A stretch of DNA of 64,000 bases, taken from Chloroflexota bacterium (GTDB lineage Bacteria; Bacillota; Sulfobacillia; JBFLWA01; JBLNDB01). The stretch covers positions 18,833-82,832 of the forward strand of contig JBLNDB010000092.1 in NCBI GenBank assembly GCA_050261235.1, read 5' to 3'. The notes beneath the pieces are model-generated. The model saw only the letters and a list, made by a program, of their open reading frames with translations, was not told where the DNA came from and did no database searches. Below are positions 30,101-52,195 of this stretch, one piece after another. The position numbers were made by a program, and so were the translations under genes. The stretch's first letter is position 1, and each line of letters starts with the position of its first letter.

Positions 30101-31461
30101 ACCTTGGCAAGGAGTCCGTCTACCGAGCCGGAACCATCGCCACTGTGGCCGAGAAGACAGCGTTCGGGTTCGCCCGCGCTTACACCAGCAACAACGAACG
30201 GCCACCCCGTCGGGCGGAGCTGCAGCGCCTGGCAATCGGCTGCAGTGGCGTGAAGCGGACCACCGGTCGCCATCCCGGCGGGTTGGTTGTCGTGCCCGAG
30301 GGCCGGCACATCGAGGAGTTCACGCCGGTCCAGTATCCGGCCAATGACACCAGCGCCGACATGCTGACGACCCATTTCGACTACGATTCGATGCACGACC
30401 AGCTGACGAAACTCGACATGCTCGGTCACGACGACCCGACCGTGATCAAGCTCCTCGGCGACATCACCGGGATCGACGTCAAGCAGATCCCGTTCGACGA
30501 CCCGGCGACTCTGTCGCTCTTCTCGTCGGTCGAAGCGCTCGCAGTCAAGCCCGATGACATCGGCGGCTGCACCGTCGGCACCCTTGGCGTGCCCGAGTTC
30601 GGCACTCGCTTCGTCCGCTCGATGCTCGAGGACACGCGGCCGCAGACGTTCAGCGATCTGGTCCGGATTTCCGGTCTGTCTCACGGGACAATGGTCTGGC
30701 AGGGCAACCAGCAAGACCTGATCCGCAATCAGACCGCGACCTTGCAGGAGATCGTCGGCTGTCGCGACGACATCCTGCTCTACCTGACGTCGTGCGGCAT
30801 GGATGCGCTGCAAGCGTTCAACATCATGGAGGCTGTCCGCAAGGGCAAGGGGATCAAGGACGCCGAGGTCGCGGCGATGCAGAAGCTTGGTGTTCCTTCG
30901 TGGTACATCGATGCCTGCCGCAAGATCTCCTACCTCTTCCCGAAGGCCCATGCCGCTGCCTATGTCATGATGGCGTTCCGCATCGCCTACTTCAAGGTCC
31001 ACTTCCCGGCGGCGTTCTACGCCACGTACTTCAGCGTCCGGGCCGACGACTTCGACAGCGACATGATCGCACCGGACGTCACGATGCTGCGCGATCGGCT
31101 GGCGGCCATCGAGGCGAAGGGGCGCGAGGCGCCGATCAAGGAGAAGAACCAGGCGGTCATCCTCGAAGTGGCAATCGAGATGTACGTCCGCGGCATCAAG
31201 TTCGCCCCGGTCAACCTGGCCGAATCGGACGCGAAGCGGTTCCTCATCCGCGATGGCGACCTGCTGGCGCCGTTTGTCGCCATCCCCGGGCTTGGCGAAG
31301 CCGCGGCGAACAGCATCACTGACGCCAGGGCGGCAGGTCCGTTCCGCTCGATTCAGGATCTCCAGGCGCGGACCCGTATTTCCCGTGCCGTGCTCGACCT
31401 GCTCCGCGCCAGCGGTGCGCTGGCCGGCCTGCCCGAAGACAACCAGCTGTCTCTGTTCTAG
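27118..31461 (+). CDS. polC: DNA polymerase III PolC-type (Gram-positive replicative polymerase)
   Basis: 1447 aa with an OB-fold, a 3'-5' exonuclease domain inserted within PHP (VVDTETTGL), and the polymerase core. TTG start with AAGGGGG upstream. Confidence 0.95.
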   Translation: MLQGGQNIAGASLLDRLLAELPASDEGRASIAASRVVALEVSRRDRIWRCHLATPVKVPESSLKLLAERLCQRMQGLHGVHFVQHQQYTDLSELVAREWGFICKALADLAPGARGALKQVTPVVRGPELLCLECSDAVTQRLLDREKVLGAVTGLVQRFTGTSIRVVASCGPSPRSDETAPEQGQEPPVAEPPDVPAAHGASPDGGAADAPLDLPIVVLPPKSADPASQVLFGRVIKSDPQAISGIVDEKRGLTICGQVLAVDQRETGSGRTLVVFDITDFTDSITVKLFADPAGGRNPLAGPIVSGAWLKVRGTVQLDRRDQELVMMADDVMIADPPLRQDRAAEKRVELHLHTTLSAMDGLTKIEDAIKRAAQWGHPAIAITDHGVVQAFPTAYGVGQSEKVKIILGMEGYLVDDGAPICVNATDDRLAGGTYVVVDTETTGLRPGVDELIEICAVRLVGGQVAGEFQTFVRPSCQISKEISELTGITPADVAAAPTADDAVAKLLAFVDGACLVAHNAAFDWAFLARVADRLGGRPQLPLLDTVGLARALVPGLRNYKLDTLTAHFGVKNEARHRAGGDAAATALVFRSLLEMAIERGAETLADLNRLAGKTNITGAAAHHVVLLVQHQRGLRNLYRLVSRSHTEYFYRYPRIPRSLLSSLRDGLLVGSACAAGELVQALVAGASDEELEAIAGFYDYLEVQPVGNNAFLVRNGSLPDEEALRDLNRRIVALGRRLGKPVVATGDVHFLEPHDGQYRQVLQAGQGYEDADQGAALYFRTTDEMLAEFAYLGDEEARRIVVAEPRALAESIEDIQPVPEGTFPPRPAGAEEELRARCTDRARELFGDVLPEVVASRLEMELNAIIGNGYAGIYTIARDIVLRANQDGYLVGSRGSVGSSLVAHLSGITEVNPLPAHYRCPVCRRSEFPQVPAGTSGFDLPAKICPDCGAAMTKDGQDIKFEVFMGFKGNKVPDIDLNFSGEQQSAMHHWVVDYLGKESVYRAGTIATVAEKTAFGFARAYTSNNERPPRRAELQRLAIGCSGVKRTTGRHPGGLVVVPEGRHIEEFTPVQYPANDTSADMLTTHFDYDSMHDQLTKLDMLGHDDPTVIKLLGDITGIDVKQIPFDDPATLSLFSSVEALAVKPDDIGGCTVGTLGVPEFGTRFVRSMLEDTRPQTFSDLVRISGLSHGTMVWQGNQQDLIRNQTATLQEIVGCRDDILLYLTSCGMDALQAFNIMEAVRKGKGIKDAEVAAMQKLGVPSWYIDACRKISYLFPKAHAAAYVMMAFRIAYFKVHFPAAFYATYFSVRADDFDSDMIAPDVTMLRDRLAAIEAKGREAPIKEKNQAVILEVAIEMYVRGIKFAPVNLAESDAKRFLIRDGDLLAPFVAIPGLGEAAANSITDARAAGPFRSIQDLQARTRISRAVLDLLRASGALAGLPEDNQLSLF

Positions 31462-40440: not shown

Positions 40441-42717
40441 ATGCACCAGGTATTTGAGACAGAGATCGCCGGTCGCAAGTTCGTCATCGAGACCGGCAAA
40501 GTCGCCCAGCAGGCCGGCGGATCATGTCTGGTCCGCTATGGCGACACGGTAGTGCTCGTCACGGCGACGGCATCCAGCCAGCCACGCGAGGGTATCGATT
40601 TCTTCCCCCTGACAGTCGACTACGAAGAGCGCTCATATGCGATCGGCAAGATTCCGGGCAGTGTCTTCCGGCGCGAGGGGCGGCCAACGGAGAAGGCCAT
40701 TCTCGCCGCTCGCTTGACCGACCGTCCGCTTCGCCCGCTGTTCCCGAGCGGCTTCCGCAATGATGTAGCGATCGTCGTCACCGTCATGTCGGTGGACTAT
40801 GACAACTCCCCGGAAATGTGCGGCATGATCGGCTCGTCGCTGGCGCTCATGATCTCGGACATTCCGTTCAACGGGCCGACGGCGGCCGTACAGGTCGGTC
40901 TGGTCGACGGCCAATACGTGATCAACCCGACCCGCGCTCAGGATGCCGTCAGCCGCCTGACGCTGTCCGTCGCTGGGAGCAAGGACGCCATTCTGATGGT
41001 CGAGGCCGGCGCCAAAGAGGTCACTGAAGAGGAGATGATCGACGCCATTCTCTTCGGTCACGAAGAGATCAAGCGGATCATCGCCTTCGAAGAGGAGATC
41101 ATCGCTCAGGTCGCCAAGGCGAAGCGCGAGATGTCAGTGTTCGAGGTCACGCCTGAGGTCGCCGCGGCAGTCAAGGCGGCGATTGGCGATGACCTCCGCC
41201 AGGCCGTCCGCCATCCCGACAAGCAGACCCGCGAGGCCAATATCGACGCGCTCGGCACCCGTGTCATGGAACAGGTGCTGGCGGAGTTCCCGGACAAGGC
41301 GAAGGAGATCAGCGAGGCCTACCATGACGAGCTCAAGGCCGAGGTCCGCCGCCAAATTCTCGATGACGGTGTGCGCCCGGACGGGCGGCAGGTCAACGAG
41401 ATTCGTCCCATCACCTGCGAAGTCGGGCTGTTGCCGCGCGTTCACGGTTCGGGTCTGTTCACGCGCGGTCAGACTCAGGTCATGACAGCGCTTACGCTCG
41501 GCATGATCTCCGACCAGCAGAAGCTGTTCGACCTGACCGATGAAGAGTTCAAGCGCTACATGCACCACTACAACTTCCCGTCCTACAGCACCGGCGAGAC
41601 CAAGCCGGTCCGCGGTCCCGGCCGGCGTGAAATCGGTCACGGTGCCCTGGCGGAGCGTGCCCTGGCGCCGATGATCCCGGACGACACCAGCTTCCCCTAC
41701 ACGCTTCGCCTCGTGTCGGAGGTTCTGTCATCGAACGGCTCGACCTCGATGGCAAGCGTCTGCGGCAGCACGCTGGCGCTGCTCGATGCCGGTGTGCCGA
41801 TCAAGGCCCCGGTAGCCGGCATCGCCATGGGCCTGATCAAGGAAGGCGACCGCTACAAGGTATTGACTGACATTCAGGGCATGGAAGACCACCTTGGCGA
41901 CATGGACTTCAAGGTTGCCGGCACGACTCAAGGCATCACCGCCATCCAGATGGACATCAAGATCGCCGGCATCAACCGCGAAATCCTTGAGACCGCCCTG
42001 GCCCAGGCCCGCGAGGCGCGCCTGTTCATCCTCGGCAAGATCCACGATTGCCTGCCGGCGCCGCGGCCCGAGCTGTCCAAGTACGCGCCGCGCATCACCG
42101 TCATGCAGATCAACGTCGACAACATCCGCGACGTCATCGGCCCGGGCGGCAAGATGATCAACAAGATCATCGCCGAGTGCGGCGTCGAGATCGACATCGA
42201 GGACGACGGCAGGATCTTCATCGCCTCGACCGACGAGGAAGGCGCGAAGAAGGCGCAGGCCTGGATCGAGCGGCTGACCAAGGACGTCGCTCCCGGCGAG
42301 GTCTACACCGGCAAGGTGACGCGGCTGATGAACTTCGGCGCCTTCGTCGAGATTCTCCCCGGCAAGGAAGGCCTGATCCACATCTCCGAACTGGATATCG
42401 GCCGCGTGCCCACTGTCGAGGATGCGGTCAAGATCGGCGATGAAGTCACGGTCAAGGTCACCGAGATCGACGAGAAGGGTCGGATCAACCTCTCCCGGCG
42501 CGAGGTCCTGATCGAGGAGCGGAAGCGCCTTGGCCTGCCGGTCGAAGAGCGGCCGCGTTACGATAGCCCGCGCCGCGAGGGCGGACGTCACGACGGGCCG
42601 CGCCGCGACGGCTCGCGTCGCGAAGGACAGCGTCACGACGGCCCGCGCCCGGAACGCGGCCCTGACCGCGGTCCGCGCCGTGGCGGCGACAACGGCGGAT
42701 CGCCGAGCCTGCAATGA
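40441..42717 (+). CDS. pnp: Polyribonucleotide nucleotidyltransferase (PNPase) with Arg-rich C-terminal extension
   Basis: Start trimmed to [14 protein letters not shown]. Two RNase PH domains, KH and S1. Tail [26 protein letters not shown]. Confidence 0.95.
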
Positions 42718-43559
42718 AGCCTGGGCTGCATGTCTCGATCGCCGGTGGCTGGGCTGAAGTTGGCACGCGAGCGAAGGACGGGCACTGCCGGTCCCTGCAG
42801 GTCTTCTCCCGCAGCCCGCGAGGCGGCAAGGCGAAGCCGATCGATCCGGCACAAGTGAACGAGATGTGGACGACCCTCCGGGCTGAGAACATCAGCCCGC
42901 TGGTCGTCCACGTTCCCTATTTCATCAACCTGGCGTCACCCGAGGACGACAAGCATGCGTTTGCAGTCGAACTGCTGGCTGAGGAACTGCAGCGGGCCGA
43001 GGCGCTTGGCGCGATGGGGGTCGTTACCCACTTCGGCGATCACCGCGGCAGTGGCGAAGAGGCGGGACTGCGCCGCGTCGTTGCGGCGGTGCGGGGCGCG
43101 CTGTCGGCCTCGCCCGGCAAGGCGATGGTGCTCCTGGAGAACGCGGCTGGCGAAGGCGGCGAGTGCGGCACGCGCTTTGAGGAACTGGCCGCCGCCATCG
43201 CTCTCCTGGAGGGTGACCCGCGGGTGGGCGTCTGCTTCGACACTGCCCACGCCTTCGCTGCCGGTTACGACTTGCGGACGCCGGACGCCGCTGTCCGACT
43301 GGTCGGGCAGGTGCAGGCTTTGGTCGGTCCGGAGCGGCTCCGCTGCTTTCATCTGAATGACTCGAAGACGCCACTGGGCTCGCGCCGGGACCTGCACGCG
43401 AACATCGGTCACGGTGAGATTGGCAACGCTTGCTTCGAGGCCCTCTGCCGGCACTCTGCGTGGGCAGAGCTGCCTGGTATCCTCGAGACGCCTGACAAGG
43501 ACCCCGGGGCGCGTGCTGCTGATCTCGCCCTCCTTGCGGCTTGGTCGGCGGGGAGGTAA
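42714..43559 (+). CDS. nfo: Endonuclease IV (Nfo, AP endonuclease family 2)
   Basis: TIM-barrel AP endonuclease motifs ([33 protein letters not shown]). Confidence 0.85.
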
Positions 43560-43563
43560 AGCG

Positions 43564-44829
43564 ATGCTTCAGACGACGCAGCTGCCCAGTGGCCCCCTGG
43601 TGGTCAGCGAGGCTGTGCCGGGTTTCGGTTCGGTCTCGATTGGCGCCTGGGTGGGTGTCGGCTCGGCCCACGAGCCCGCTGCCCGCTCAGGCCTGTCGCA
43701 CTTCATCGAACATCTCGTGTTCAAGGGGACGCGCCGGCGGACTGCCCGCGAGCTGGCGGAGGCCATCGAGGATGTCGGCGGGCAGATCAACGCCTACACC
43801 GCCAAGGACTACTCGTGCTTCTACGCCAAAGTGCGCCAGCCAGACATCGGCATCGCCGTCGACGTGCTTGGCGACATGCTGACCGAATCCACGTTCACCC
43901 CCGATGACGTCGACCGCGAGCGCGGCGTCGTCCTCGACGAAATCAGGCTGGCCGAAGACGATCCCGGCGATGTCGTGCACGACTTGTTCTGTTCCACCTG
44001 TTGGCCGACCTCACCGCTGGGGCGACCGGTGAGCGGCACACGACTGACTGTCAGCGCCATCTCCCAGTCTGAAGTCGTGAATTTCTTCCGATCGCACTAC
44101 GGACTCGGCAATCTCGTGGTCGTGGCTGCCGGGGCGGTCGACCACGAGCAACTGATCGAGTTGGTTGAACGGCACTTTCTCGGCGCGACCGCGCCGGCAC
44201 CGGCCGTATTGCTGGACATCCCGCAGCCGTGCTTCTCACCTGACTTTGCCTACCGCGCGCGGGCCACGGAGCAGGTTCACCTTTGCCTCGGCAGTGAGGC
44301 ACTGGCCATCGACGATCCGGATGTCTACACGCTGGAAGTCGCCAATGTGCTGATCGGCGGCGGCGCTAGCTCGCGCCTGTTCCAGGAGGTGCGCGAGGAA
44401 CGCGGTCTGGCTTATGACATCTACTCGTACCCTTCGTTCCACCGGCGCGCCGGCCTGTTCACTGTCTATGCCGCGGCATCGCCGGATCTGGCGGTGGAGG
44501 TCGCCGAGATCGCCATCGCCGAACTCCGCTCGCTGATTGCGACACCACCCACCGAACGTGAGGTGGCGCGAGCGCGCGCCCAACTGCTGGCATCGCTCAC
44601 CTTCGGCCTCGAGAGCAGCGGCTCGCGCGCGGCCAGAATCGGCAAGAGCCAGTTCTACCTTGGCCGGGTCGAGACAATCGAGGAGGCGGGGGACCTGATT
44701 GCGCGGGTCACGCCCGCCGATATCCAGCGCTTGGCGGGCCGCCTCTTCTCCGGCCGGTTTGCCGTTGCCGCCGTCGGAGCCGGGGAGGCGGAGCAGCCGC
44801 TCGCCGACCTGTTCCGTCGCATCGGCTGA
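43564..44829 (+). CDS. M16 family zinc peptidase (MlpA/YmxG-like, non-secreted)
   Basis: Inverted zinc motif HFIEHLVFKG plus downstream Glu. Start trimmed from 43357 to MLQTTQLPSGP with GGGGAGG upstream. Confidence 0.85.
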   Translation: MLQTTQLPSGPLVVSEAVPGFGSVSIGAWVGVGSAHEPAARSGLSHFIEHLVFKGTRRRTARELAEAIEDVGGQINAYTAKDYSCFYAKVRQPDIGIAVDVLGDMLTESTFTPDDVDRERGVVLDEIRLAEDDPGDVVHDLFCSTCWPTSPLGRPVSGTRLTVSAISQSEVVNFFRSHYGLGNLVVVAAGAVDHEQLIELVERHFLGATAPAPAVLLDIPQPCFSPDFAYRARATEQVHLCLGSEALAIDDPDVYTLEVANVLIGGGASSRLFQEVREERGLAYDIYSYPSFHRRAGLFTVYAAASPDLAVEVAEIAIAELRSLIATPPTEREVARARAQLLASLTFGLESSGSRAARIGKSQFYLGRVETIEEAGDLIARVTPADIQRLAGRLFSGRFAVAAVGAGEAEQPLADLFRRIG

Positions 44830-44853
44830 CCTGAGCGTAAACCGAAATAGCCG

Positions 44854-44891
44854 CGACAGCCACGGGAAATCCCGTGGCTGTCGCTTTTCTT
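44854..44891 (+). terminator. Strong intrinsic terminator after the M16 peptidase gene
   Basis: GCGACAGCCACGGG-AAAT-CCCGTGGCTGTCGC followed by TTTTCTT. Confidence 0.7.
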
Positions 44892-44985
44892 GTGCCCGTG
44901 TCACACTCCGAGAAGGCGACATAGTATGTAGTAGCTTATGGAACCTCAGGGAACCCGATTGACACTCAGCCGGGGGGAGTCGAGG

Positions 44986-45360
44986 ATGGCTCGCGCAAGG
45001 GTCATCGGTAAGAAGGTGCGCCGGATCAAGAAGCCAGCCGCAAAGGCACAGGAGGCCAAACCAGTGGCATTCGACAGGGCGAAAGCGTTCCAGGACGCCA
45101 TCAGCGAACTCCGCGACAACGCCGATCAGTACATGCGCGAACCGGACTTGGGGTCTGCGATCCGCCGCCTTTTGAACAAAGTCGGCGTACCGATGTCGGA
45201 GCGCCAGGCGGACTCGCTCTGTAACGCAGTGGGCGTAAGCGGCGATCTCAAGCCAGGCGATACTGACGCGCTACGGTCGGCCTTCGGCCGCGCCGCACGC
45301 AATCTGCCGCAAGGCAGCCCCAGCCTGACGGATCTCATGAAGAAGGTTCGCCCGAAGTAG
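44986..45360 (+). CDS. Hypothetical basic protein (124 aa)
   Basis: ATG 6-7 nt after GGGGGGAG. Lys/Arg-rich N-terminus. No homolog recognised. First gene of the insertion. Confidence 0.4.
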   Translation: MARARVIGKKVRRIKKPAAKAQEAKPVAFDRAKAFQDAISELRDNADQYMREPDLGSAIRRLLNKVGVPMSERQADSLCNAVGVSGDLKPGDTDALRSAFGRAARNLPQGSPSLTDLMKKVRPK

Positions 45361-45381
45361 GAAAAGCGCGCATGGCAGGGG

Positions 45382-45576
45382 GTGAGCGGGCTGTTCAAAA
45401 CGCGGATGGATCAGGAGATCTTCCGGCTGGCAACGCTGATCATCCTCTTCTTCTTCTTCGTGGTCGGCGTGGACGCGATCAGCGGCTCGCTCAGCTGGGC
45501 GCCGGCCCGCCGCGTGCCCGCTGCGCCGCCCTGGCCCGCCTCACCATACCCACCTCTGGCACCCGGAAGGAGGTAG
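45382..45576 (+). CDS. Tiny transmembrane peptide, array copy 1 (divergent; the ATG at 45406 is an alternative start)
   Basis: Hydrophobic core LATLIILFFFFVVGV shared with the downstream copies. Confidence 0.4.
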   Translation: MSGLFKTRMDQEIFRLATLIILFFFFVVGVDAISGSLSWAPARRVPAAPPWPASPYPPLAPGRR

Positions 45577-45580
45577 GTGG

Positions 45581-45829
45581 ATGCCCGTCGCCACAGCAGC
45601 ACGGGATCAGGCCAGGGACCACGAACGTGGGCCGGATCTTGGGCCGTACGCCCCGGGTGATGACTTCGACACGGAGCCGGACGACAGTGAGGACGAAGCA
45701 ATTCCTCGCGATCCGGCGGAAGCAGGCTGGCTCAATCCCGGCATACGACCGATCTTCGTGGCTGTGATCCTCATCATCCTGATGTTCTTCTTCACCCTCA
45801 CAACCGTGGTCACTCGCCAACTGCTTTAA
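45581..45829 (+). CDS. Tiny transmembrane peptide, array copy 2 (acidic N-terminal extension)
   Basis: GGAAGGAGGT RBS. C-terminal IRPIFVAVILIILMFFFTL core. Confidence 0.5.
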   Translation: MPVATAARDQARDHERGPDLGPYAPGDDFDTEPDDSEDEAIPRDPAEAGWLNPGIRPIFVAVILIILMFFFTLTTVVTRQLL

Positions 45830-45857
45830 CACGACCCTGACAGGAGGTGAATCAGGA

Positions 45858-46007
45858 GTGGCCGATCTTCAGAGCTCACAGGTGGGCTGGGGCGGCGGAT
45901 GGTTCTTCGGTCCCGGCCGCTGGATCTTCATCGCGGTGATTCTCATCATCTTGCTGTTCTTCTTCGCGATCGTCTCCGTGCCGGGCACGGGCGGACCGAT
46001 CTGGTAG
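45858..46007 (+). CDS. Tiny transmembrane peptide, array copy 3 (49 aa)
   Basis: AGGAGGTGA RBS. VADLQSSQVGWGGGWFFGPGRWIFIAVILIILLFFFAIVSVPGTGGPIW. Not in the ORF track. Confidence 0.6.
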   Translation: MADLQSSQVGWGGGWFFGPGRWIFIAVILIILLFFFAIVSVPGTGGPIW

Positions 46008-46046
46008 AACAGCGATCGATGGTCAGATATTCGGGAGGTGACAAGA

Positions 46047-46169
46047 ATGGCGGACACCCAGACCTCAGGCGGATGGTTCTTCGGTCCCGGCCGCTGGATC
46101 TTCATCGCGGTAATCCTCATCATCCTGCTCTTCTTCTTCGCAATCGTCGCCGTCCGGCCCATCTGGTAA
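46047..46169 (+). CDS. Tiny transmembrane peptide, array copy 4 (40 aa)
   Basis: GGGAGGTGA RBS. MADTQTSGGWFFGPGRWIFIAVILIILLFFFAIVAVRPIW. About 90% nt identity to copy 5. Confidence 0.65.
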   Translation: MADTQTSGGWFFGPGRWIFIAVILIILLFFFAIVAVRPIW

Positions 46170-46204
46170 GCTGACCTGTGCACGCGACCGAGGAGGTGAC
46201 TAGA

Positions 46205-46342
46205 ATGGCAGACACCCAGACCTCAGGCGGATTCTTCTTCGGGCCCGCCCGCTGGATCTTCATCGCGGTGATCCTCATCATCCTGCTCTTCTTCTTCGCG
46301 ATCGTCTCGGTCCCGGGAACCGGCGTCGGCCCGGTCTGGTAA
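46205..46342 (+). CDS. Tiny transmembrane peptide, array copy 5 (45 aa)
   Basis: GAGGAGGTGA RBS. MADTQTSGGFFFGPARWIFIAVILIILLFFFAIVSVPGTGVGPVW. Confidence 0.65.
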   Translation: MADTQTSGGFFFGPARWIFIAVILIILLFFFAIVSVPGTGVGPVW

Positions 46343-46550
46343 GGCAGCATGACGGTCCAGCCCTGGCAGGAGGTGGCATGCGACCCTGGCATAACCTCAC
46401 GGCGGGGCTGGGGCGGCTTCTGGAGTCGAACCCGAATGAGCACGACAACGGCTGATCGACATCAGCCACGCCACCGCAGAGCCGCAGCGACTCCAGGCGC
46501 GGGCCCGGTCGTCGACCGAGCTCAGTGCATGGTCACGGGAGGTGAACCTG

Positions 46551-46670
46551 ATGGCCGATCTTCAGGGTAGCGGCCTGATTTGGGGTCGCTGGATCTGGAT
46601 CGCTGTGATCCTCATCATCCTCCTCTTCTTCTTCGCCATCGTCGCCGTGAGACCGTGCTGGTGGTGGTGA
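46551..46670 (+). CDS. Tiny transmembrane peptide, array copy 6 (39 aa)
   Basis: GGGAGGTGA RBS. MADLQGSGLIWGRWIWIAVILIILLFFFAIVAVRPCWWW. Confidence 0.6.
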   Translation: MADLQGSGLIWGRWIWIAVILIILLFFFAIVAVRPCWWW

Positions 46671-46725
46671 GTACCGCTGCGCGTGCACGCTGCCGAAGGC
46701 ACGCAAGGGCCTGAGGTCGCGAACG

Positions 46726-46763
46726 GGAAGAAGGGCCGGACCGGCTGCCGGTCTGGCCCTTCT
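46726..46763. terminator. Bidirectional intrinsic terminator between the peptide array (+) and the convergent minus-strand gene
   Basis: Near-perfect palindrome AGAAGGGCCGGACCGGC-TGC-CGGTCTGGCCCTTCT with pyrimidine/U-rich flanks on both strands. Confidence 0.6.
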
Positions 46764-46778
46764 CCGATTATCCGGGGG

Positions 46779-47456
46779 CTATTGGGCCGAACTGCCATCA
46801 GCTGTCGCCGGCTGCCGCGGCTGTATGAACGAGGCCAACAGCTCGAGGAACGCTGGCGATGTGATGTACGCCAGCGCGCCGAGAATGTCTGGTGCCTTCA
46901 TGGCGACCGCGTCGGCCTGTTGTGGCGCCTGACCATCGGTCGATGCCACCGACAAGCGCGCTTCGCGCGGCGCGGCCACGCCGCTCAAGGCCCCGAACAG
47001 GCCCTGTGCGATCTGGCTGAGCTGGCGCCGCCCTTCCGGACTCAGCAGGCCGAGCACATTCTTGATGACATCCAGCGCAGTGATGATGCTTTCCGTCGCC
47101 TTGGCCATCTCCTGGGTGGCGCCCTGGAGCTGAACGATACCCACTTGCGCGCGCCCCAGAAGGTCGTCAAGCGAGATGCGCCGCTGCTGGATCCGGACCC
47201 CGGGCGCGAGGCTCTGTGGCACGAAACCGGCTGTTGACACCTCGACCTGTCCGCCGCCCGCCGAGGCTGCCAGCGCCGGCAGAGCAGCTGGTTGCTGGGT
47301 GGCGGCCTCCTCGCCACCGACCAGCGACAGCAGGAAATCACGTTTCTTCTGTAACGAGACAATCTCACTCTCAAGGCGCGCACGCTCTGTCAAGCAAGAC
47401 TGGAGGCGGTAGTTGACACGCTGCAGCCTGTTCACTACCTCGTCCTTATCCGCCAT
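46779..47456 (-). CDS. Hypothetical coiled-coil protein
   Basis: GAGGAGG 10 nt upstream of the ATG (minus strand). N-terminal heptad-like MADKDEVVNRLQRVNYRLQSCLTERARLESEIVSLQKKRDFL. Stop abuts the bidirectional terminator. Confidence 0.55.
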   Translation of the reverse strand: MADKDEVVNRLQRVNYRLQSCLTERARLESEIVSLQKKRDFLLSLVGGEEAATQQPAALPALAASAGGGQVEVSTAGFVPQSLAPGVRIQQRRISLDDLLGRAQVGIVQLQGATQEMAKATESIITALDVIKNVLGLLSPEGRRQLSQIAQGLFGALSGVAAPREARLSVASTDGQAPQQADAVAMKAPDILGALAYITSPAFLELLASFIQPRQPATADGSSAQ

Positions 47457-47555: not shown

Positions 47556-48704
47556 GTGTATCCTTATTATCTCTGGTATCAGCAGAGGCAGTGGTACCAG
47601 CAGCATGACTCACGGAGAATCCTGGTGCTGAACAGCGGCATCGACCCGCTCGACTACTTCCGGCGCACGCTCGGGCGGCAGGGCGCGGTGCTGGTACGCC
47701 ATCTGCCGCTGATCAACGCGGTCACCTGCCACCTGCCGGCGCGGGCGTCGGTGATGACTCTTCGCGGTCAGCCGGAGGTGTCCCGCGTCGACTACGACTT
47801 CCTGCTGCGCATCGAGACAGTCGCGCGGCCTCAACTCGCCAGCATCTCAGCCGGGCAAGAGGTGCCATGGGGGATCGAGCGGATCCGCGCACCGCAGGTC
47901 TGGCAGGCCACTGACGGGTCCGGTGTGCGGATCGGCGTCATCGATACCGGCATCGATCTCACACATCCCGATCTCCAGCAGAACATTGCCGGCGGTACCA
48001 ACATCCTTGATCCCGGCCAGCCGCCGGTCGATGACAATGGTCACGGAACTCACGTCGCCGGTACGATCGCTGCACTGAACAACGGCATCGGCGTGGTCGG
48101 CGGCGCACCGGGCGCACGGATCTTCGCCATCAAGGCGTTCGATCAGAACGGCACGGCACGGCTGTCCGACGTCATCGCCGCACTCGAATGGTGTCTCACC
48201 AACAACATCAGCGTCATCAACCTCAGCTTCGGCAGCGACACGGGAAACGAGAGCTTCCGCGACGCTGTCCGGGCCGCCGCGCGGTCGACCGTCCTGGTTG
48301 CCGCGGCAGGAAACAACGGCCGGGCCGACTCCGTTGACGTTCCCGCCCGCTACCCTGATGTCGTGGCCGTATCCGCATCGACCCGCGCCGACCAGCTGGC
48401 GGCTTTCTCCAGCCGCGGGCCGCAGGTGGCCGTCGCCGCCCCCGGTCAGGATATCCTGTCGACCTGGACGGACGGAGGCTACAGTACGCTCAGCGGCACG
48501 TCGATGGCTACCCCGCACGTCACCGCGCTGTATGCACTGCTGATGCGCTACCGCCCGGGACTGTCGCGGGCGCAGATGCTCGAGATCATCCGTCGCACGG
48601 CCGATCCGCTGATCGGCGTGGCCCAGGATGGCGGTTCCGGCGTCATCAATGCTGCGAACGTGATCACTGCCTTCCGCCCTGGCTGGGTGTTGCCCGCCCG
48701 TTAG
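47556..48704 (+). CDS. Subtilisin-like serine protease (peptidase S8) lacking a signal peptide; intracellular-type
   Basis: Catalytic triad motifs VIDTGID, HGTHVAGTIAA, GTSMATPHV. The N-terminus MYPYYLWYQQRQWYQQHDSRR has no hydrophobic signal. Propeptide-like region precedes the catalytic domain. Confidence 0.85.
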   Translation: MYPYYLWYQQRQWYQQHDSRRILVLNSGIDPLDYFRRTLGRQGAVLVRHLPLINAVTCHLPARASVMTLRGQPEVSRVDYDFLLRIETVARPQLASISAGQEVPWGIERIRAPQVWQATDGSGVRIGVIDTGIDLTHPDLQQNIAGGTNILDPGQPPVDDNGHGTHVAGTIAALNNGIGVVGGAPGARIFAIKAFDQNGTARLSDVIAALEWCLTNNISVINLSFGSDTGNESFRDAVRAAARSTVLVAAAGNNGRADSVDVPARYPDVVAVSASTRADQLAAFSSRGPQVAVAAPGQDILSTWTDGGYSTLSGTSMATPHVTALYALLMRYRPGLSRAQMLEIIRRTADPLIGVAQDGGSGVINAANVITAFRPGWVLPAR

Positions 48705-48729
48705 GCTCATATAATCCACTGGTGATGCT

Positions 48730-49005
48730 ATGCGCATGAGCGAGCTGAGGAACAAGGAACTGATCGACCTGAGCAGCGGCAACCGTCTCGGCCTGATTGG
48801 TGAAGCTGATCTGGTCATCGACCAGGAGAGCGGCAAGATCATCTCGCTGGTCATGCCTGAGCGCGGCGGCGGGTTTAGCCTGTTCGGCCGCGCGCGCGAG
48901 ACCACCGTCCCTTGGTACGCGATCAAGAAAATCGGCGCGGACCTGGTCATCGTCGACCTTCCCGGCGGCGAACTGCCGCGCTCTGAGCGCGAACGCTGGC
49001 AGTAG
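48730..49005 (+). CDS. ymxH: YlmC/YmxH family sporulation protein (PRC-barrel)
   Basis: MRMSELRNKELIDLSSGNRLGLIGEADLVIDQESGKIISLVMPE...LFGRARETTVPWYAIKKIG matches the YmxH family. Conserved position before dpaA. Confidence 0.85.
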   Translation: MRMSELRNKELIDLSSGNRLGLIGEADLVIDQESGKIISLVMPERGGGFSLFGRARETTVPWYAIKKIGADLVIVDLPGGELPRSERERWQ

Positions 49006-49066
49006 CGTCGGATACCGCCCGCAAACGGGGACAAACTATACCCAAATGGCCGAGGGAGGTTTGTCC

Positions 49067-49804
49067 ATGATTGCGGGCGACGATCGGCATGATCGTTCCG
49101 GAGAGGCGCGGACCGGAACTTGGCGCACCGAGCAAAGCAGTGATCTCCATGACGCGCCGACCATCAAAGACATGCACGCAGACCCGGGTGAGGGTCGGGT
49201 GGGGGGCGGCCACGGCGGACGGTCCAACCTCGGCGCGGTCGTCGGCCTGTTCGCCAGTCAGTCGAAGGCCGAACACGCCGTCCGCGCTCTCCGCGACCAA
49301 GGTCTGAAGGAGCAGGACGTCTCGGTCATCGCGCACGATAAGCACGGCGGAGACGCCGGTCGCGGCGCCGAAATCGGCCACGGACGAGACGACAACTTCG
49401 CTCTGATGTTCGATGCGCCTGTCGTGACTGCCGGCTCCGGCCTCGAGCATGAGAACTACGGCGCCGGCTTCTGGACTCCCGCCGCCACCGGCGGCATCGC
49501 CGGCATGCTGACCAGCAGCGGACTGCTGGTCGTCCCAGGCATCGGCCAGGTCTTCGCCGCCGGCCCGTTGCAGGGCGTGATGACGAGCGGAGTGTCCGGG
49601 AGTATCGCCGGCGGCCTGCTTGACCTGGGGATACCGGATGAGCGAAGCCGCCAGATCGAGAGCCGGATCAAGGAAGGGTTCACCCTTGCGGTCGTGCACA
49701 CCGATGATCCGGGTGTTGCTCAGCAGGCGGCAGCGATCATGAAACAGAGCGGAGCAGAAGAGGTAGAGTTTCACGAGCGACAGGGAGTGCGGCCGACGCA
49801 CTAG
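49067..49804 (+). CDS. YflT/DUF1269-like general stress protein with glycine-zipper membrane segment
   Basis: Start trimmed to MIAGDDRHD (ATG 8 nt after GGGAGG). The 5' part of ORF-track 48797 overlaps ymxH. Gly-zipper GGIAGMLTSSGLLVVPGIGQVFAAGPL followed by LGIPDERSRQIESRIKEGFTLAVV. Confidence 0.6.
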   Translation: MIAGDDRHDRSGEARTGTWRTEQSSDLHDAPTIKDMHADPGEGRVGGGHGGRSNLGAVVGLFASQSKAEHAVRALRDQGLKEQDVSVIAHDKHGGDAGRGAEIGHGRDDNFALMFDAPVVTAGSGLEHENYGAGFWTPAATGGIAGMLTSSGLLVVPGIGQVFAAGPLQGVMTSGVSGSIAGGLLDLGIPDERSRQIESRIKEGFTLAVVHTDDPGVAQQAAAIMKQSGAEEVEFHERQGVRPTH

Positions 49805-50609: not shown

Positions 50610-50618
50610 TCGCAACTC

Positions 50619-50646
50619 ACCTGCGCGTGCAGCCGGTCATATAGTG
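50619..50646 (+). promoter_or_regulatory. Putative sigma-K-type promoter (AC-N17-CATAtagTg) upstream of dpaAB
   Basis: AC at 50619-20, 17-nt spacer, CATANNNT(g) at 50638-46. B. subtilis spoVF is sigma-K dependent. Confidence 0.3.
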
Positions 50647-50693
50647 TAGCAATCGTCAGCCTCACCGGCTGCCCAGCAGGGGGTCAGCGTCTC

Positions 50694-51566
50694 ATGCGAA
50701 TCGCAGGAACGACAGTCGCCGTAGTCGGCGGCGACGCCCGTGAACGTGAGGTCATCAGCGCGTTGGTTGGCGCGGGAGCGAGGGTGCAGGTGGCCGCGCG
50801 GCCGGCGGGCGATGTCGGGGCCGAGTGGTCAGCCACTGTCGGCGAGGCGCTCCGCGGCTCCACGGCGCTCGTGCTGCCGATGCCCGGCGTCGACGCTCAG
50901 GGCAGGATCTACGCACCTCTGGTCAGCGAACCGTTTCATCTGCGTGCCAGCGATCTGGCAGGGCTCGTCGCGGGCGCCCCGATCATCGTCGGCGTTGCTC
51001 GCTCCAGCCTGTCCGACCCGGCGGCGGAACTCGGGCACCCGGTCTACGAACTGTCCGAAAACGACGAGCTCGCAATCGCCAACTCCGTCCCGACTGCCGA
51101 GGGGGCGGTGCGGATGGCGATGGAGCGGCGCCCGGTCACCATCCACGGCAGTCAGGCAGTCGTCCTCGGGCTGGGCCGCTGCGGTTTCACTCTCGCCCGC
51201 ACGCTGGCCGCGCTTGGCGCCCGAGTCACCGTAGTCGCTCGCAAACCGGCAGACAGGGCGAGGGCGTCGGCGATGGCCTGGGCCGCAACCGACTACCCCA
51301 GCGCCGGCGCGGCGCTGCAGGAAGCGGACTTCGTCTTCAACACGGTGCCGGCGCTGGTTCTGACCGGAGACAGGCTCGCCCAGACGCGGCCCGATTGTCT
51401 GATTGTCGATCTGGCGAGCGCACCGGGCGGGACCGACTTCGCCGCTGCGTCGGCGCTCGGCCGTGAAGCCCTGCTCGCCCCCGGTCTGCCCGGCAAGTGC
51501 GCGCCGGTCACGGCCGGCCGGGCGGCAGCGCGCGTCATTCTCGACCTCCTGACCAGCTGTCGCTGA
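50694..51566 (+). CDS. dpaA: Dipicolinate synthase subunit A
   Basis: Colinear with B. subtilis SpoVFA (IANSVPTAEG, TIHGSQAVVLGLGRCG, LIVDLASAPGGTDF, ALLAPGLPG). Confidence 0.95.
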   Translation: MRIAGTTVAVVGGDAREREVISALVGAGARVQVAARPAGDVGAEWSATVGEALRGSTALVLPMPGVDAQGRIYAPLVSEPFHLRASDLAGLVAGAPIIVGVARSSLSDPAAELGHPVYELSENDELAIANSVPTAEGAVRMAMERRPVTIHGSQAVVLGLGRCGFTLARTLAALGARVTVVARKPADRARASAMAWAATDYPSAGAALQEADFVFNTVPALVLTGDRLAQTRPDCLIVDLASAPGGTDFAAASALGREALLAPGLPGKCAPVTAGRAAARVILDLLTSCR

Positions 51567-51607
51567 CCCTCGGCGATCCGGTGGGGCTGTTTCATCAGGA
51601 GGGGCCT

Positions 51608-52195
51608 ATGCTGACCGGTAAGAGGGTCGGATTCGTACTGACTGGTTCTCATTGCACGATGGGCCGAGTTCTGCCGGAGATCGCCCGACTGGTCGCAGCC
51701 GGCGCCGATCTGACTCCCATTCTGTCCCCGGCGGCGGCGACGGTCGACACACGCTACGGGACCGCCGCTGACCTGAGGGCGAATCTGGCCAAACTGACGG
51801 GCCACGAGCCATGGACAGCGTTCACTGAGGTGGAGCCGATCGGCCCGCAGAAGCTGCTCGACATCGTCGTCGTCGCGCCTTGCACCGGCAACACGCTGGC
51901 CAAACTCGCGGCCGGCATCTCCGACACACCCGCGACAATGGCCGTCAAGGCGCACCTGCGCAATGGCCGCCCGGTCGTGGTCGCGGTCGCAAGCAACGAT
52001 GGACTCGGCGCCAACGCCAAGAACATCGGCCTGCTGCTGAATACGAAGAACTTCTACTTCGTCCCCTTCGGCCAAGACAGCCCGACTGAGAAACCGAATT
52101 CACTTGATGCCAGGCTGGAGCTTCTGACTGACACGGTCGCTCAGGCGCTCGTCGGGCGGCAGCTTCAGCCGGTGCTGATCGAACGCTGGCGGTAG
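51608..52195 (+). CDS. dpaB: Dipicolinate synthase subunit B (flavoprotein)
   Basis: Start trimmed to MLTGKRVGFVLTGSHCT (GGAGGGG upstream). Colinear with SpoVFB (NFYFVPFGQDSP, QLQPVLIE). Confidence 0.95.
   Translation: MLTGKRVGFVLTGSHCTMGRVLPEIARLVAAGADLTPILSPAAATVDTRYGTAADLRANLAKLTGHEPWTAFTEVEPIGPQKLLDIVVVAPCTGNTLAKLAAGISDTPATMAVKAHLRNGRPVVVAVASNDGLGANAKNIGLLLNTKNFYFVPFGQDSPTEKPNSLDARLELLTDTVAQALVGRQLQPVLIERWR

What the first reader, a model, noticed from the sequence alone, without database searches (positions are those of the whole stretch)
45382..46670. Tandem array of six paralogous tiny transmembrane peptide genes, four missing from the ORF track
Six consecutive + strand ORFs of 39-82 aa are each preceded by a strong GGAGGTGA-type RBS at canonical spacing. 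All share the core W-I-(F/W)-I-A-V-I-L-I-I-L-L-F-F-F-A-I-V. Copies 4 and 5 are about 90% identical at the DNA level (recent duplication); copies 1 and 2 are diverged with extra N- or C-terminal segments. The architecture (Gly/aromatic-rich short N-terminus plus one very hydrophobic helix, tandem multi-copy) matches the YjcZ/'tiny_TM_bacill' family of sporulation-expressed peptides in Bacillus. An alternative resemblance is to arrays of type I toxin peptides (Ldr/Ibs-like) in Gram-negatives. The ORF track instead shows long antisense and out-of-frame ORFs (45869..46183 -, 46120..46443 -) that are artefacts of the repeats.
Basis: partly seen in the sequence, partly recalled or inferred. Interest (0 to 1): 0.7.

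Follow-up and report, generated by a model that had tools for sequence, protein, structure and literature searches.

The report
Orphan tiny membrane-peptide operon, sporulation-type promoter
An uncultured spore-forming bacterium carries a real operon of six tiny one-helix membrane peptides that resembles the Bacillus YjcZ sporulation peptide arrays in layout and probable timing, but it belongs to a separate, very rare family found in only one narrow lineage.

Summary
Six + strand ORFs of 39-82 aa at 45382-46670 each carry one extremely hydrophobic helix (core AV-ILIIL-FFF). Five have GGAGGT(G) Shine-Dalgarno sites 5-8 nt before the start codon. A seventh, decayed copy lies at 46361-46455.

The ORFs are conserved as ORFs, and their two extended subtypes recur, in a syntenic locus of a relative whose neighbouring M16 gene is 73% identical. 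The + frame has the lowest pN/pS of all six frames.

They are not YjcZ/tiny_TM_bacill members. A control peptide scores 46-51 bits on PF09680 and TIGR01732, the window peptides score nothing at E<=10, and hhalign against 64 real YjcZ proteins gives 3% probability.

The type I toxin reading has no regulatory support: one operon, strong SDs, and no σ70-type promoter-like site or Rfam match on the antisense strand.

The family is tiny: 5 proteins among 1.84 billion representatives. It is co-transcribed with an orphan 124-aa helical protein.

Its conserved promoter-like element (TCACA-N13-ACATAGTATGTAG) resembles the B. subtilis σK consensus. Its only counterpart in the window sits upstream of dpaA.

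Best reading: a lineage-specific analogue of YjcZ arrays, made late in the mother cell. The molecular function is unknown. The host looks like Bacillota (PolC, CodY, dpaAB), not Chloroflexota as labelled.

The parts
44853..44884 (+). Intrinsic terminator of the upstream M16 peptidase gene: 14-bp stem followed by TTTTCTTGTG. It isolates the peptide operon from upstream transcription.
   Evidence: Terminator scan. RNA fold -31.9 kcal/mol, z = -6.7. An equivalent hairpin follows the M16 gene in L001.
44898..44935 (+). Conserved promoter-like element GTGTCACA-N13-ACATAGTATGTAGTAGC. The σK-like -35 TCACA is at 44901-44905 and the -10 ACATAGTATG at 44919-44928. It contains a near-perfect palindrome, CGACATA-G-TATGTAG.
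   Evidence: Unique in the window. It is 92% identical to L001 4848-4898, against 72.6% for the neighbouring M16 coding sequence. It recurs before each of three peptide units in L001. It matches the B. subtilis σK consensus KCACM / GCATANNNTA (PMC3416734), except for a 13-nt gap (14-16 in PMC517825) and two -10 mismatches. It does not fold as RNA (z = +1.5).
44986..45360 (+). First gene of the operon: an orphan 124-aa protein with a disordered basic N-terminus (residues 1-27) and a helical core.
   Evidence: Annotated as ACM3XN_09960. Only two clusters exist in 5.8 billion proteins, both next to peptide arrays. No Pfam, NCBIfam, PHROGs or PADLOC hit. AF2 pLDDT 65.5 with helices at 31-120. No PDB fold match; best E 0.6, TM 0.36.
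45382..45576 (+). c1, 64 aa. The helix lies near the N-terminus (LATLIILFFFFVVGV) and is followed by a Pro/Ala-rich C-terminal tail. The SD is weak and the start is uncertain (GTG 45382 as in PGAP, or ATG 45406).
   Evidence: The subtype is conserved in L001 as the 57-aa ORF MDPDIYRLVGLIILFLFF.... Strain polymorphisms: 4 synonymous, 2 non-synonymous, both in the tail.
45581..45829 (+). c2, 82 aa. It has a long acidic N-terminal extension (net -10) and a helix at the extreme C-terminus (tail-anchor layout). It starts 4 nt after the c1 stop, and its SD lies inside c1.
   Evidence: The subtype is conserved in L001 as the 101-aa ORF, whose ATG overlaps the stop of the c1-type gene (ATGA). Strain polymorphisms: 3 synonymous, 2 non-synonymous.
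45858..46007 (+). c3, 49 aa, short type: MADLQ..GWGGGWFFGPGRW, helix IFIAVILIILLFFFAIV, tail ..GGPIW. GTG start 7 nt after AGGAGGTGA.
   Evidence: Annotated as ACM3XN_09975. Kyte-Doolittle 19-mer mean 3.42.
46047..46169 (+). c4, 40 aa, short type.
   Evidence: Annotated as ACM3XN_09980. 92% DNA identity to c5 over 122 nt including the SD.
46205..46342 (+). c5, 45 aa, short type.
   Evidence: Annotated as ACM3XN_09985. A strain variant, P0002, differs by A15G.
46361..46455 (+). Decayed seventh copy. It keeps the CCCTGGCAGGAGGTG SD block and a ..GWGGFW.. stretch homologous to the c3 N-terminus. The frame is broken and the helix is lost.
   Evidence: Repeat families D4 and D6. ORFs 46378-46455 and 46349-46570 lack a hydrophobic segment. 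GGAGGTG at 46369.
46551..46670 (+). c6, 39 aa, short type with a Trp/Cys-rich tail (RPCWWW). Last gene of the operon.
   Evidence: It was not found in the public protein collection with either of the two starts tried. Its L001 counterpart is the 42-aa ORF ending FWWWCWW, followed by the same hairpin.
46729..46763 (.). GC-rich hairpin with a 16-17-bp stem, lying between the operon end and the convergent 225-aa gene (46779-47456, - strand). It is a probable bidirectional terminator without a clear U-tract.
   Evidence: Inverted repeat I1. RNA fold z = -3.9. The 61-nt stretch containing it (46709-46769) is 87% identical to L001 3841-3901, and the stem is identical in the two folds.

Best explanation
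The locus is a single operon in an uncultured, high-GC, endospore-forming Bacillota-like bacterium. It runs from a promoter-like element at 44898-44935 to a terminator-like hairpin at 46729-46763. It encodes an orphan 124-aa helical protein followed by six tiny single-pass membrane peptides.

Each peptide is translated from its own Shine-Dalgarno site; c1 and c2 are probably translationally coupled. Each peptide consists of little more than one extremely hydrophobic helix with the shared core AV-ILIIL-FFF.

Three subtypes carry different soluble ends on this helix:
- c1 has a C-terminal Pro/Ala-rich tail.
- c2 has a long acidic N-terminal domain.
- c3-c6 are the short MAD(T/L)Q type with a Gly/aromatic segment before the helix and a tail ending in Trp.

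The shared helix most likely acts as a membrane-insertion and self-association module, so that the peptides sit together in one membrane.

The operon is probably transcribed late in sporulation in the mother cell by a σK-type RNA polymerase, together with the dipicolinate synthase operon. The peptides would then be minor components of the mother-cell or outer forespore membrane, that is, a functional analogue of the σK-controlled YjcZ peptide arrays of Bacilli.

Status of each step:
- Shown: the ORFs, the SDs, conservation as coding sequence, the operon boundaries, the rarity of the family, non-membership of YjcZ, and the spore-former gene content.
- Inferred: membrane insertion, co-assembly, σK dependence, and the sporulation role.
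For: Coding status:
- ORFs with SDs recur in three diverged sources: the window, L001 and L002.
- Over the 18-codon core, pN/pS is 0.37-0.47 in the + frame, the lowest of the six frames.
- Of 14 strain-level differences inside the peptides, 8 are synonymous third-position changes and none breaks a frame.
- The extended subtypes are conserved: c1~57 aa and c2~101 aa, which abut or overlap in both lineages. c6's likely counterpart, the 42-aa ORF, has a similar Trp/Cys tail and the same downstream hairpin.

Membrane character:
- The Kyte-Doolittle 19-mer mean is 2.5-3.6.

Operon structure:
- A terminator lies upstream.
- There is a single promoter-like motif.
- Gaps between c1 and c5 are 4-39 nt; the 208-nt c5-c6 gap holds the decayed copy.
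- A hairpin with a conserved stem lies downstream.

Sporulation link:
- dpaA, dpaB (TIGR02852 253.8 bits, cut-off 229), asd, dapG and dapA lie 4-9 kb downstream.
- Only two sites in the 64-kb window, on either strand, match KCACM-N12-17-CATANNNT or the exact CATANNNTGTAG. One precedes this operon and the other precedes dpaA. Both are intergenic, on the + strand, and 40-60 nt before the start codon.
- The σK consensus comes from PMC3416734.
- yjcZ is in the B. subtilis σK regulon (PMC517825).
- YjcZ genes form equivalent tandem arrays.
Against: - There are no expression data.
- The -35/-10 gap of the operon's promoter-like element is 13 nt (12 in one L001 copy), against 14-16 nt for B. subtilis σK promoters. 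The -10 has two mismatches.
- The count of consensus matches in the window (2) is not itself above shuffles (mean about 1). The argument rests on where they lie.
- The extended motif CATANNNTGTAG was derived after seeing both sites.
- The palindrome may instead be an operator for an unrelated regulator.
- sigK itself is not in the window.
- Proximity to dpaAB may be incidental. The pnp-M16...dpaAB neighbourhood is, from my own knowledge, conserved Bacillota synteny into which anything could insert.
- No homology to any characterised protein supports any specific function.
Confidence: 0.55

Rival explanations
1. The peptides are membrane-damaging effectors, acting like type I toxins or holins. 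Very hydrophobic one-helix peptides made late would permeabilise the mother-cell membrane and help release the spore, or would act as toxins held in check by some antidote.
For: The size, the single very hydrophobic helix and the Trp-rich ends are typical of membrane-active toxins. σK-type timing, if real, coincides with mother-cell lysis. Multi-copy arrays are known for Ldr and Ibs toxins (my own knowledge).
Against: There is no antisense promoter-like site inside the array and no Rfam sRNA. Consensus SDs in a seven-gene operon are the opposite of the tightly repressed, individually promoted type I toxin genes. No Pfam toxin or holin family is hit. There is no adjacent lysin. Subtypes with long soluble tails are conserved, which is not expected of simple pore formers.
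Confidence: 0.15
2. The peptides are highly diverged true members of the YjcZ/tiny_TM_bacill family (PF09680/TIGR01732).
For: They share an overall design: a short polar start, a Gly/aromatic stretch, an I/L/V/F helix and a short tail. They occur in a spore-former, in a tandem array with individual SDs.
Against: Neither HMM gives a hit at E<=10, while a control peptide scores 46-51 bits. hhalign probability is 2.95%. The invariant YjcZ columns (F..VVLFILL.I.G) and the Gly closing the helix are absent. An exhaustive hmmsearch with the family profile recovers no YjcZ protein among 1.84 billion representatives.
Confidence: 0.06
3. The peptides are exported: hydrophobic bacteriocin-like peptides or RiPP precursors processed by the neighbouring M16 or S8 proteases.
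For: Several small paralogous peptides in one operon recall multi-peptide leaderless bacteriocins (my own knowledge). An M16 peptidase gene lies upstream and an S8 subtilase gene at 47556-48704 lies nearby.
Against: There is no transporter, immunity or modification gene in the operon. The M16 gene is separated by a terminator and is part of the conserved pnp-nfo-M16 synteny. The S8 gene lies beyond a convergent gene. An uninterrupted 18-20-residue I/L/F/V stretch with hydropathy 3.4-3.6 is a transmembrane anchor, not an amphipathic secreted peptide. There is no leader or cleavage motif.
Confidence: 0.05
4. The ORFs are not genes. Only a DNA repeat is conserved and the ORFs are by-products.
For: Short ORFs in GC-rich DNA arise easily. 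The repeat also creates long antisense ORFs.
Against: SD plus start codon at fixed spacing recurs for five copies. ORFs, SDs and subtypes are conserved in a relative whose M16 gene is 73% identical. pN/pS is lowest in the + frame. Polymorphisms are synonymous-biased. The one copy that lost its frame also lost its helix.
Confidence: 0.03

Closest known systems
YjcZ family sporulation proteins (Pfam PF09680 YjcZ_2; NCBIfam TIGR01732 tiny_TM_bacill), including YhzE1
   Same: - Peptides of 26-76 aa that are essentially one very hydrophobic helix preceded by a Gly/aromatic-rich stretch.
- The named NCBI hits are almost all Bacillales genera.
- They occur as tandem paralogues, each with its own strong SD and about 40 nt apart, ending in a terminator.
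- B. subtilis yjcZ is σK-dependent (PMC517825). The operon here has a σK-like promoter element.
   Different: - No detectable sequence relationship.
- The helix consensus is IFIAVILIIL-FFFAIV rather than FALLVVLFILLIIVGA. There is no invariant Gly after the helix.
- The tails end in Trp (PIW, CWWW) rather than in Gly/Tyr/Cys.
- This family has subtypes with a 55-75-aa acidic N-terminal domain or a 30-40-aa C-terminal tail.
- It is co-transcribed with a 124-aa orphan protein.
- It is known from only one narrow high-GC lineage.
Type I toxin peptide arrays (Ldr, Ibs in enterobacteria; TxpA, BsrG, Fst in Firmicutes)
   Same: Small single-helix hydrophobic peptides, sometimes present in several copies per genome.
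   Different: Those genes are individually promoted and each is paired with an antisense or overlapping sRNA, with translation kept low. Here seven genes share one promoter-like element, SDs are consensus-strength, there is no antisense promoter-like site or known sRNA, and no family match.
Small regulatory or structural membrane proteins of sporulation (for example SpoVM, CmpA) and small-protein subunits of membrane complexes
   Same: Very small proteins acting at membranes during development. They are often missed by annotation.
   Different: Those are single-copy and amphipathic or otherwise distinct in sequence. None forms an array of paralogues with an identical helix core. This comparison rests on my own knowledge and was not tested here.

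Membership tests
YjcZ / tiny_TM_bacill (PF09680, TIGR01732) | Scores at or above the Pfam PF09680 gathering cut-off (21 bits) | tested here: not met
   None of the six peptides hits PF09680 at E<=10. A concatenate of c4 and c5 also gives no hit. The control consensus peptide scores 46 bits, E 3.8e-12.
YjcZ / tiny_TM_bacill (PF09680, TIGR01732) | Scores at or above the NCBIfam TIGR01732 cut-off (21.35 bits) | tested here: not met
   No NCBIfam hit for any peptide at E<=10. The control peptide scores 50.8 bits.
YjcZ / tiny_TM_bacill (PF09680, TIGR01732) | Helix consensus FALLVVLFILLIIVG(A), with invariant F, VVLFILL, I and the closing Gly | tested here: not met
   The alignment of 64 genuine members gives these invariant columns. 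This family's invariant columns are A, V, L and FFF within IFIAVILIIL-FFF. hhalign of the two profiles gives probability 2.95% with one aligned column.
YjcZ / tiny_TM_bacill (PF09680, TIGR01732) | Gly-rich variable segment immediately before the helix | tested here: inconclusive
   Short copies have SGGWFFGPGRW or GWGGGWFFGPGRW, which is Gly/aromatic-rich. c6 has less of this, c1 has none, and c2 has an acidic domain instead.
YjcZ / tiny_TM_bacill (PF09680, TIGR01732) | Found in endospore-forming Firmicutes | tested here: met
   The window encodes dpaA and dpaB (TIGR02852 253.8 bits, cut-off 229), PolC, and CodY (codY_Gpos 376.8 bits, cut-off 267).
YjcZ / tiny_TM_bacill (PF09680, TIGR01732) | Tandem paralogues, each with its own SD | tested here: met
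   B. thuringiensis L125 2706-3129 has three PF09680 genes. Here there are six genes, five of them with GGAGGT(G).
YjcZ / tiny_TM_bacill (PF09680, TIGR01732) | σK-dependent transcription (known for B. subtilis yjcZ) | tested here: inconclusive
   TCACA-N13-ACATAGTATG lies upstream of the operon. It resembles KCACM / GCATANNNTA and the dpaA upstream site, but the gap is one nt short and there are no expression data.
Type I toxin-antitoxin loci | Antisense or overlapping sRNA gene with its own promoter | tested here: not met
   There is no promoter-like site on the - strand within 45360-46700 and no Rfam family at E<=1. The limitation is that only σ70-type consensus and known RNA families were scanned.
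Type I toxin-antitoxin loci | Toxin ORF individually transcribed, with restrained translation | tested here: not met
   There is one promoter-like element for seven genes. Gaps between c1 and c5 are 4-39 nt, and the SDs are consensus-strength.
Type I toxin-antitoxin loci | Small hydrophobic single-helix peptide under about 60 aa | tested here: met
   c3-c6 are 39-49 aa with hydropathy 3.4-3.6 over 19 residues.
Type I toxin-antitoxin loci | Toxicity on overexpression | not testable with these tools
   This needs an experiment.

The most novel reading that the evidence does not exclude
The operon encodes a previously undescribed, lineage-specific membrane assembly of late sporulation. A set of peptides shares one self-associating helix, and their different tails (an acidic domain, a Pro-rich tail, Trp caps), together with the 124-aa helical orphan, build a hetero-oligomeric structure in the outer forespore or mother-cell membrane. 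Possible roles are a channel or scaffold linked to dipicolinate export, or to mother-cell lysis. It would have arisen independently of YjcZ in a deep-branching high-GC Bacillota lineage that is currently mislabelled.
Probability: 0.15. Interest if true: 0.6.

Novelty: new variant of a known kind. Interest (0 to 1): 0.4.

Why it matters
Tiny membrane proteins are the least understood class of bacterial genes, and the function of the YjcZ family is still unknown.

A second, apparently unrelated family with the same architecture, array organisation and probable late-sporulation control would suggest something about spore formers. They may repeatedly evolve bundles of one-helix peptides for the same task. 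That makes the task worth finding.

The conserved subtypes give handles for experiments that plain YjcZ peptides lack. These are the acidic-domain form, the tailed form and the short form, all sharing one helix, together with the co-transcribed partner protein.

There is also a practical point. The array breaks short-read assemblies, and one copy is absent from the public protein set. Such families are therefore under-counted.

The value is limited by the narrow distribution, the uncultured host and the lack of any functional data.

Tried and rejected
- **Genome scan with the 124-aa protein alignment** (185,579 species representatives): 75 pattern matches, none confirmed.
- **Degenerate DNA pattern for AV-LIIL-FFF in genome contigs:** 95 stretches. 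All 45 loci that I translated are single matches, almost all in low-GC DNA (0.27-0.46; one at 0.53), with no similarity beyond the motif and no arrays. My first regex was off by one codon, but the conclusion is unaffected.
- **A longer pattern in metagenome contigs:** 19 stretches, all chance or unrelated larger proteins.
- **Exact look-up of c3 in the contig index:** not on record.
- **Rfam** on the locus at E<=1 and on the whole window at gathering threshold, plus a tRNA scan: nothing.
- **PHROGs and PADLOC** for all peptides, the 124-aa protein and the 225-aa protein: nothing.
- **AlphaFold of the 124-aa protein:** pLDDT 65.5.
- **Foldseek against PDB:** no match below E 0.6. The afdb50 library was unavailable.
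- **Folding the promoter-like element as RNA:** no stable structure (z = +1.5), so I rejected an RNA-element reading.
- **Concerted evolution.** Within the window, c3-c6 are 85-96% identical in the 54-nt core, against 69-87% to copies elsewhere. L001's own short copies (the 42-aa, 37-aa and truncated ORFs) are only 65-69% alike. This indicates recent duplication or local conversion in this lineage only, not a general property.
- **Charge complementarity between the c1 and c2 tails.** I considered it and dropped it, because the L001 c1-type tail is acidic.
Full report
**1. What is there**

Between 45382 and 46670 the + strand carries six small ORFs:

| Copy | Coordinates | Length | Start |
|---|---|---|---|
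| c1 | 45382-45576 | 64 aa | GTG |
| c2 | 45581-45829 | 82 aa | ATG |
| c3 | 45858-46007 | 49 aa | GTG |
| c4 | 46047-46169 | 40 aa | ATG |
| c5 | 46205-46342 | 45 aa | ATG |
| c6 | 46551-46670 | 39 aa | ATG |

The repeat finder returns one six-copy family of 79 nt centred on the hydrophobic core. It also shows that c4 and c5 are 92% identical over 122 nt, including the ribosome-binding site.

GGAGGTG occurs 14 times on the + strand of the whole 64-kb window. Five of these are in this 1.3-kb stretch. Four lie 5-8 nt before the starts of c3, c4, c5 and c6. The fifth precedes a decayed seventh copy at 46361-46455, which keeps the SD block and a GWGGFW stretch but has lost its frame and its helix. 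c2 has GGAGGT. c1 has only GGCAGGGG, and its start is uncertain.

Each product contains one segment of 19 residues with mean Kyte-Doolittle hydropathy of 2.5-3.6. c1 and c2 share only I, LIIL and FFF with them.

The array is not an assembly artefact. Contigs assembled independently from three other sequencing runs reproduce its left and right halves at 98.6-99.4% identity.

**2. Are these genes?**

A diverged relative carries the same neighbourhood (L001, Logan SRR22746119). Its M16 peptidase gene is 72.6% identical to the window's. The order there is PNPase, nfo-like endonuclease, M16 peptidase and a homologue of the 124-aa protein (58-60% identical). These are followed by seven small ORFs, each with the same kind of helix.

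Subtype conservation between the two lineages:
- c1 (helix first, then a Pro/Ala-rich tail) corresponds to a 57-aa ORF.
- c2 (long acidic N-terminal domain, helix at the very C-terminus) corresponds to a 101-aa ORF.
- The c1-type and c2-type genes abut or overlap in both lineages: a 4-nt gap here, ATGA there.
- c6, with its Trp/Cys tail, most resembles a 42-aa ORF ending FWWWCWW, which is followed by a hairpin with the same stem.
- A third source (L002, an ENA assembly) has at least two alternating short copies.

Over the 18 core codons of 14 family members, pN/pS is 0.37-0.47 in the + reading frame. It is 0.53-1.9 in the other five frames.

Between near-identical strains, 8 of the 14 differences inside the peptides are synonymous third-position changes. 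None disrupts a frame, and the only change in a helix is synonymous.

I conclude that the ORFs are under selection as coding sequence. The long antisense ORFs are by-products of the repeat.

**3. Operon anatomy**

- The upstream M16 gene ends at 44829 and is followed by a strong intrinsic terminator at 44853-44884.
- Next comes a 38-nt element, GTGTCACA-N13-ACATAGTATGTAGTAGC, at 44898-44935. It is unique in the window.
- This element is 92% identical to its counterpart in L001. That is far above the 72.6% of the adjacent coding sequence. In L001 it recurs three times, each time after a hairpin and before a block of peptide genes.
- It does not fold as RNA (z = +1.5), so I read it as a DNA signal.
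- The first gene, at 44986-45360, encodes a 124-aa orphan.
- The peptide genes follow, with gaps of 4-39 nt from c1 to c5. A 208-nt gap containing the decayed copy separates c5 from c6.
- A 16-17-bp GC-rich hairpin at 46729-46763 closes the unit. It faces a convergent 225-aa orphan gene that has its own σ70-like promoter (CTCACA-17-TATAAT). The stem of this hairpin is identical in L001, and the surrounding 61 nt are 87% identical.

**4. Family membership**

*YjcZ / tiny_TM_bacill.*
- Neither Pfam nor NCBIfam gives any YjcZ hit for the six peptides, even at E<=10.
- To check that the models are present and sensitive to such short queries, I scanned a control peptide. It was written from my recollection of the family consensus. 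It scores 46 bits on PF09680 and 50.8 bits on TIGR01732.
- I then retrieved 82 genuine YjcZ proteins and aligned 64 of them. I compared that profile with a 12-sequence profile of the present family. hhalign gives 2.95% probability with one aligned column.
- The invariant YjcZ columns (F, VVLFILL, I, and the Gly that closes the helix) have no counterpart here.
- These peptides are therefore not YjcZ family members by any test available.

*Type I toxins.*
- There is no promoter-like site on the antisense strand within the array.
- There is no Rfam match.
- No toxin family is hit.
- A seven-gene operon with consensus SDs is the opposite of the type I arrangement.

*Phage and defence libraries.* PHROGs and PADLOC give nothing.

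**5. How rare is it?**

- A word-indexed search of 5.8 billion proteins with the six-peptide profile found six proteins.
- An exhaustive hmmsearch of 1.84 billion cluster representatives found five, all already known.
- They come from the source MAG, three Logan assemblies and one ENA assembly.
- Because small ORFs are often not called, I also scanned DNA with degenerate patterns for the core. Both the 185,579 species-representative genomes and the JGI metagenome contigs returned only single matches. The translated ones show no similarity beyond the motif and are almost all from low-GC DNA.
- The 124-aa partner protein is equally restricted, to two clusters, both next to peptide arrays.
- Every L001-type contig that reaches the array's far end (L001, L119, L120) stops inside a peptide core, and L002 is a collapsed two-unit repeat. 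Short-read assemblies therefore under-represent such arrays.

**6. Host and neighbourhood**

The public record calls the MAG 'Chloroflexota bacterium'. The window says otherwise. It contains:
- PolC (1622 bits);
- CodY of the Gram-positive type (376.8 bits, cut-off 267);
- the runs dprA-topA-trmFO-xerC-hslU-codY and pnp-nfo-M16 ... dapB-dpaA-dpaB-asd-dapG-dapA-RNase J-ClpP-like-FtsK.

From my own knowledge, this is the classic Bacillota arrangement. Dipicolinate synthase A and B mark an endospore former.

**7. When is it expressed? (inference)**

- A published table gives the B. subtilis σK consensus as -35 KCACM and -10 GCATANNNTA (PMC3416734). The two blocks are 14-16 nt apart (PMC517825).
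- The operon's element reads TCACA, then 13 nt, then ACATAGTATG. The -35 is perfect, the CATA...T part of the -10 is present, and the gap is one nt short.
- The intergenic region upstream of dpaA reads TCACC, then 15 nt, then TCATATAGTG, followed by TAG. That fits the consensus spacing. From my own knowledge, dpaAB (spoVF) is a textbook σK operon. The Epulopiscium paper also assigns a σK promoter to spoVFB.
- In the whole window, on both strands, these are the only two matches to KCACM-N12-17-CATANNNT and the only two exact matches to CATANNNTGTAG.
- The number of matches is not by itself above shuffles (mean about 1). What counts is that both lie in intergenic DNA, in the right orientation, 40-60 nt before an operon's start codon.
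- B. subtilis yjcZ is itself in the σK regulon.
- I therefore think late mother-cell expression is the most likely regime. I hold it at moderate confidence because of the short spacer, the post-hoc extension of the motif and the absence of data. The palindrome CGACATA-G-TATGTAG may add an operator.

**8. Mechanism**

*Shown:* seven genes in one unit; six products that are little more than one very hydrophobic helix; three conserved subtypes that differ only in what is attached to that helix.

*Inferred:*
- The peptides insert into a membrane.
- The near-invariant helix face (A-V-x-L-I-I-L-x-F-F-F) is conserved beyond what hydrophobicity alone needs. It holds across subtypes and across lineages, so it probably mediates packing of the peptides with each other, or with a common partner.
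- The different tails provide distinct contacts on either side of the membrane.
- The 124-aa protein has a disordered basic N-terminus and a helical core (AF2 pLDDT 65.5, no PDB fold match). It is the obvious candidate partner.
- Within this genome c3-c6 are 85-96% identical in the core, against 69-87% to copies elsewhere. The short type has therefore expanded or been homogenised recently, which points to dosage mattering.

What the assembly does cannot be decided from sequence. It could be structural, a channel, or a lysis aid.

**9. Comparison and verdict**

The closest known thing is the YjcZ array of Bacilli. A B. thuringiensis locus has three PF09680 genes of 36, 34 and 42 aa, each with its own SD, about 40 nt apart, ending in a terminator.

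The present locus works like that in layout, host biology and probable timing. It fails every membership test. It also adds features YjcZ lacks: subtypes with soluble domains and a partner protein.

I class it as a new variant of a known kind. It is a solid but modest finding whose interest depends on experiments that cannot be done on an uncultured organism without heterologous work.

Noticed in passing
window 50617-50649 (upstream of dpaA, which starts at 50694): A σK-like promoter, TCACC-N15-TCATATAGTG followed by TAG, sits directly after the dapB stop. It shares the extended -10 CATANNNTGTAG with the peptide operon. These are the only two such sites in the window.
   Followed up: partly
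whole window (27118-31461 PolC; 14135-14911 CodY; 50694-52195 dpaA and dpaB): Gene content and synteny are typical of endospore-forming Bacillota: PolC, Gram-positive CodY, dprA-topA-trmFO-xerC-hslU-codY, and pnp...dpaAB-asd-dapG-dapA-RNase J-FtsK. The public record nevertheless labels the MAG 'Chloroflexota bacterium' (ACM3XN locus tags). The taxonomic label looks wrong.
   Followed up: partly
window 46361-46455: A decayed seventh peptide copy. The SD block and the N-terminal GWGG motif are retained, the frame is broken and the hydrophobic helix is lost. A 73-aa ORF at 46349-46570 runs through it into the start of c6.
   Followed up: yes
window 46779-47456 (- strand), promoter-like site 47523-47495: A convergent 225-aa orphan with a coiled-coil-like N-terminus. 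It has no Pfam, NCBIfam, PHROGs or PADLOC hit and has its own σ70-like promoter, CTCACA-17-TATAAT. It shares the terminator hairpin with the peptide operon. Three strain differences inside it are all synonymous.
   Followed up: partly
window 47556-49804: An S8 subtilase (best NCBIfam hit T7SS mycosin, 182 bits, below the cut-off of 279) and a 335-aa protein with a YflT-like stress domain lie between the peptide locus and dapB. No link to the peptides was established.
   Followed up: no
window 43357-44829: The long M16 peptidase ORF overlaps the preceding nfo-like gene (42714-43559) by about 200 nt. By comparison with L001 (MIRTTELPGGPLIV), the real start is probably the ATG at 43564 (MLQTTQLPSGPLVV).
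   Followed up: partly
L001 3219-3557: The relative has an extra subtype that is absent from the window. It is a 112-aa protein with a Pro/acidic-rich N-terminal region and a C-terminal helix GGGVFIAVALVVMMFFFAATAASGF, placed directly after the 129-aa partner gene.
   Followed up: no
L002 1-503; L001, L119 and L120 3' ends: L002 begins and ends with the same 86 nt, so it is a collapsed two-unit tandem repeat. The three L001-type contigs of about 5.1 kb all stop inside a peptide core. Short-read assemblers break on these arrays, so copy numbers in relatives are unknown.
   Followed up: partly
L125 2706-3129 (B. thuringiensis AE017355.1, 2490059-2490482): A three-gene YjcZ array lies next to genes with phage-like hits (terminase small subunit, FtsK_gamma) and a pPIWI_RE module. 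This suggests that this particular YjcZ array may sit in or beside a mobile element.
   Followed up: no
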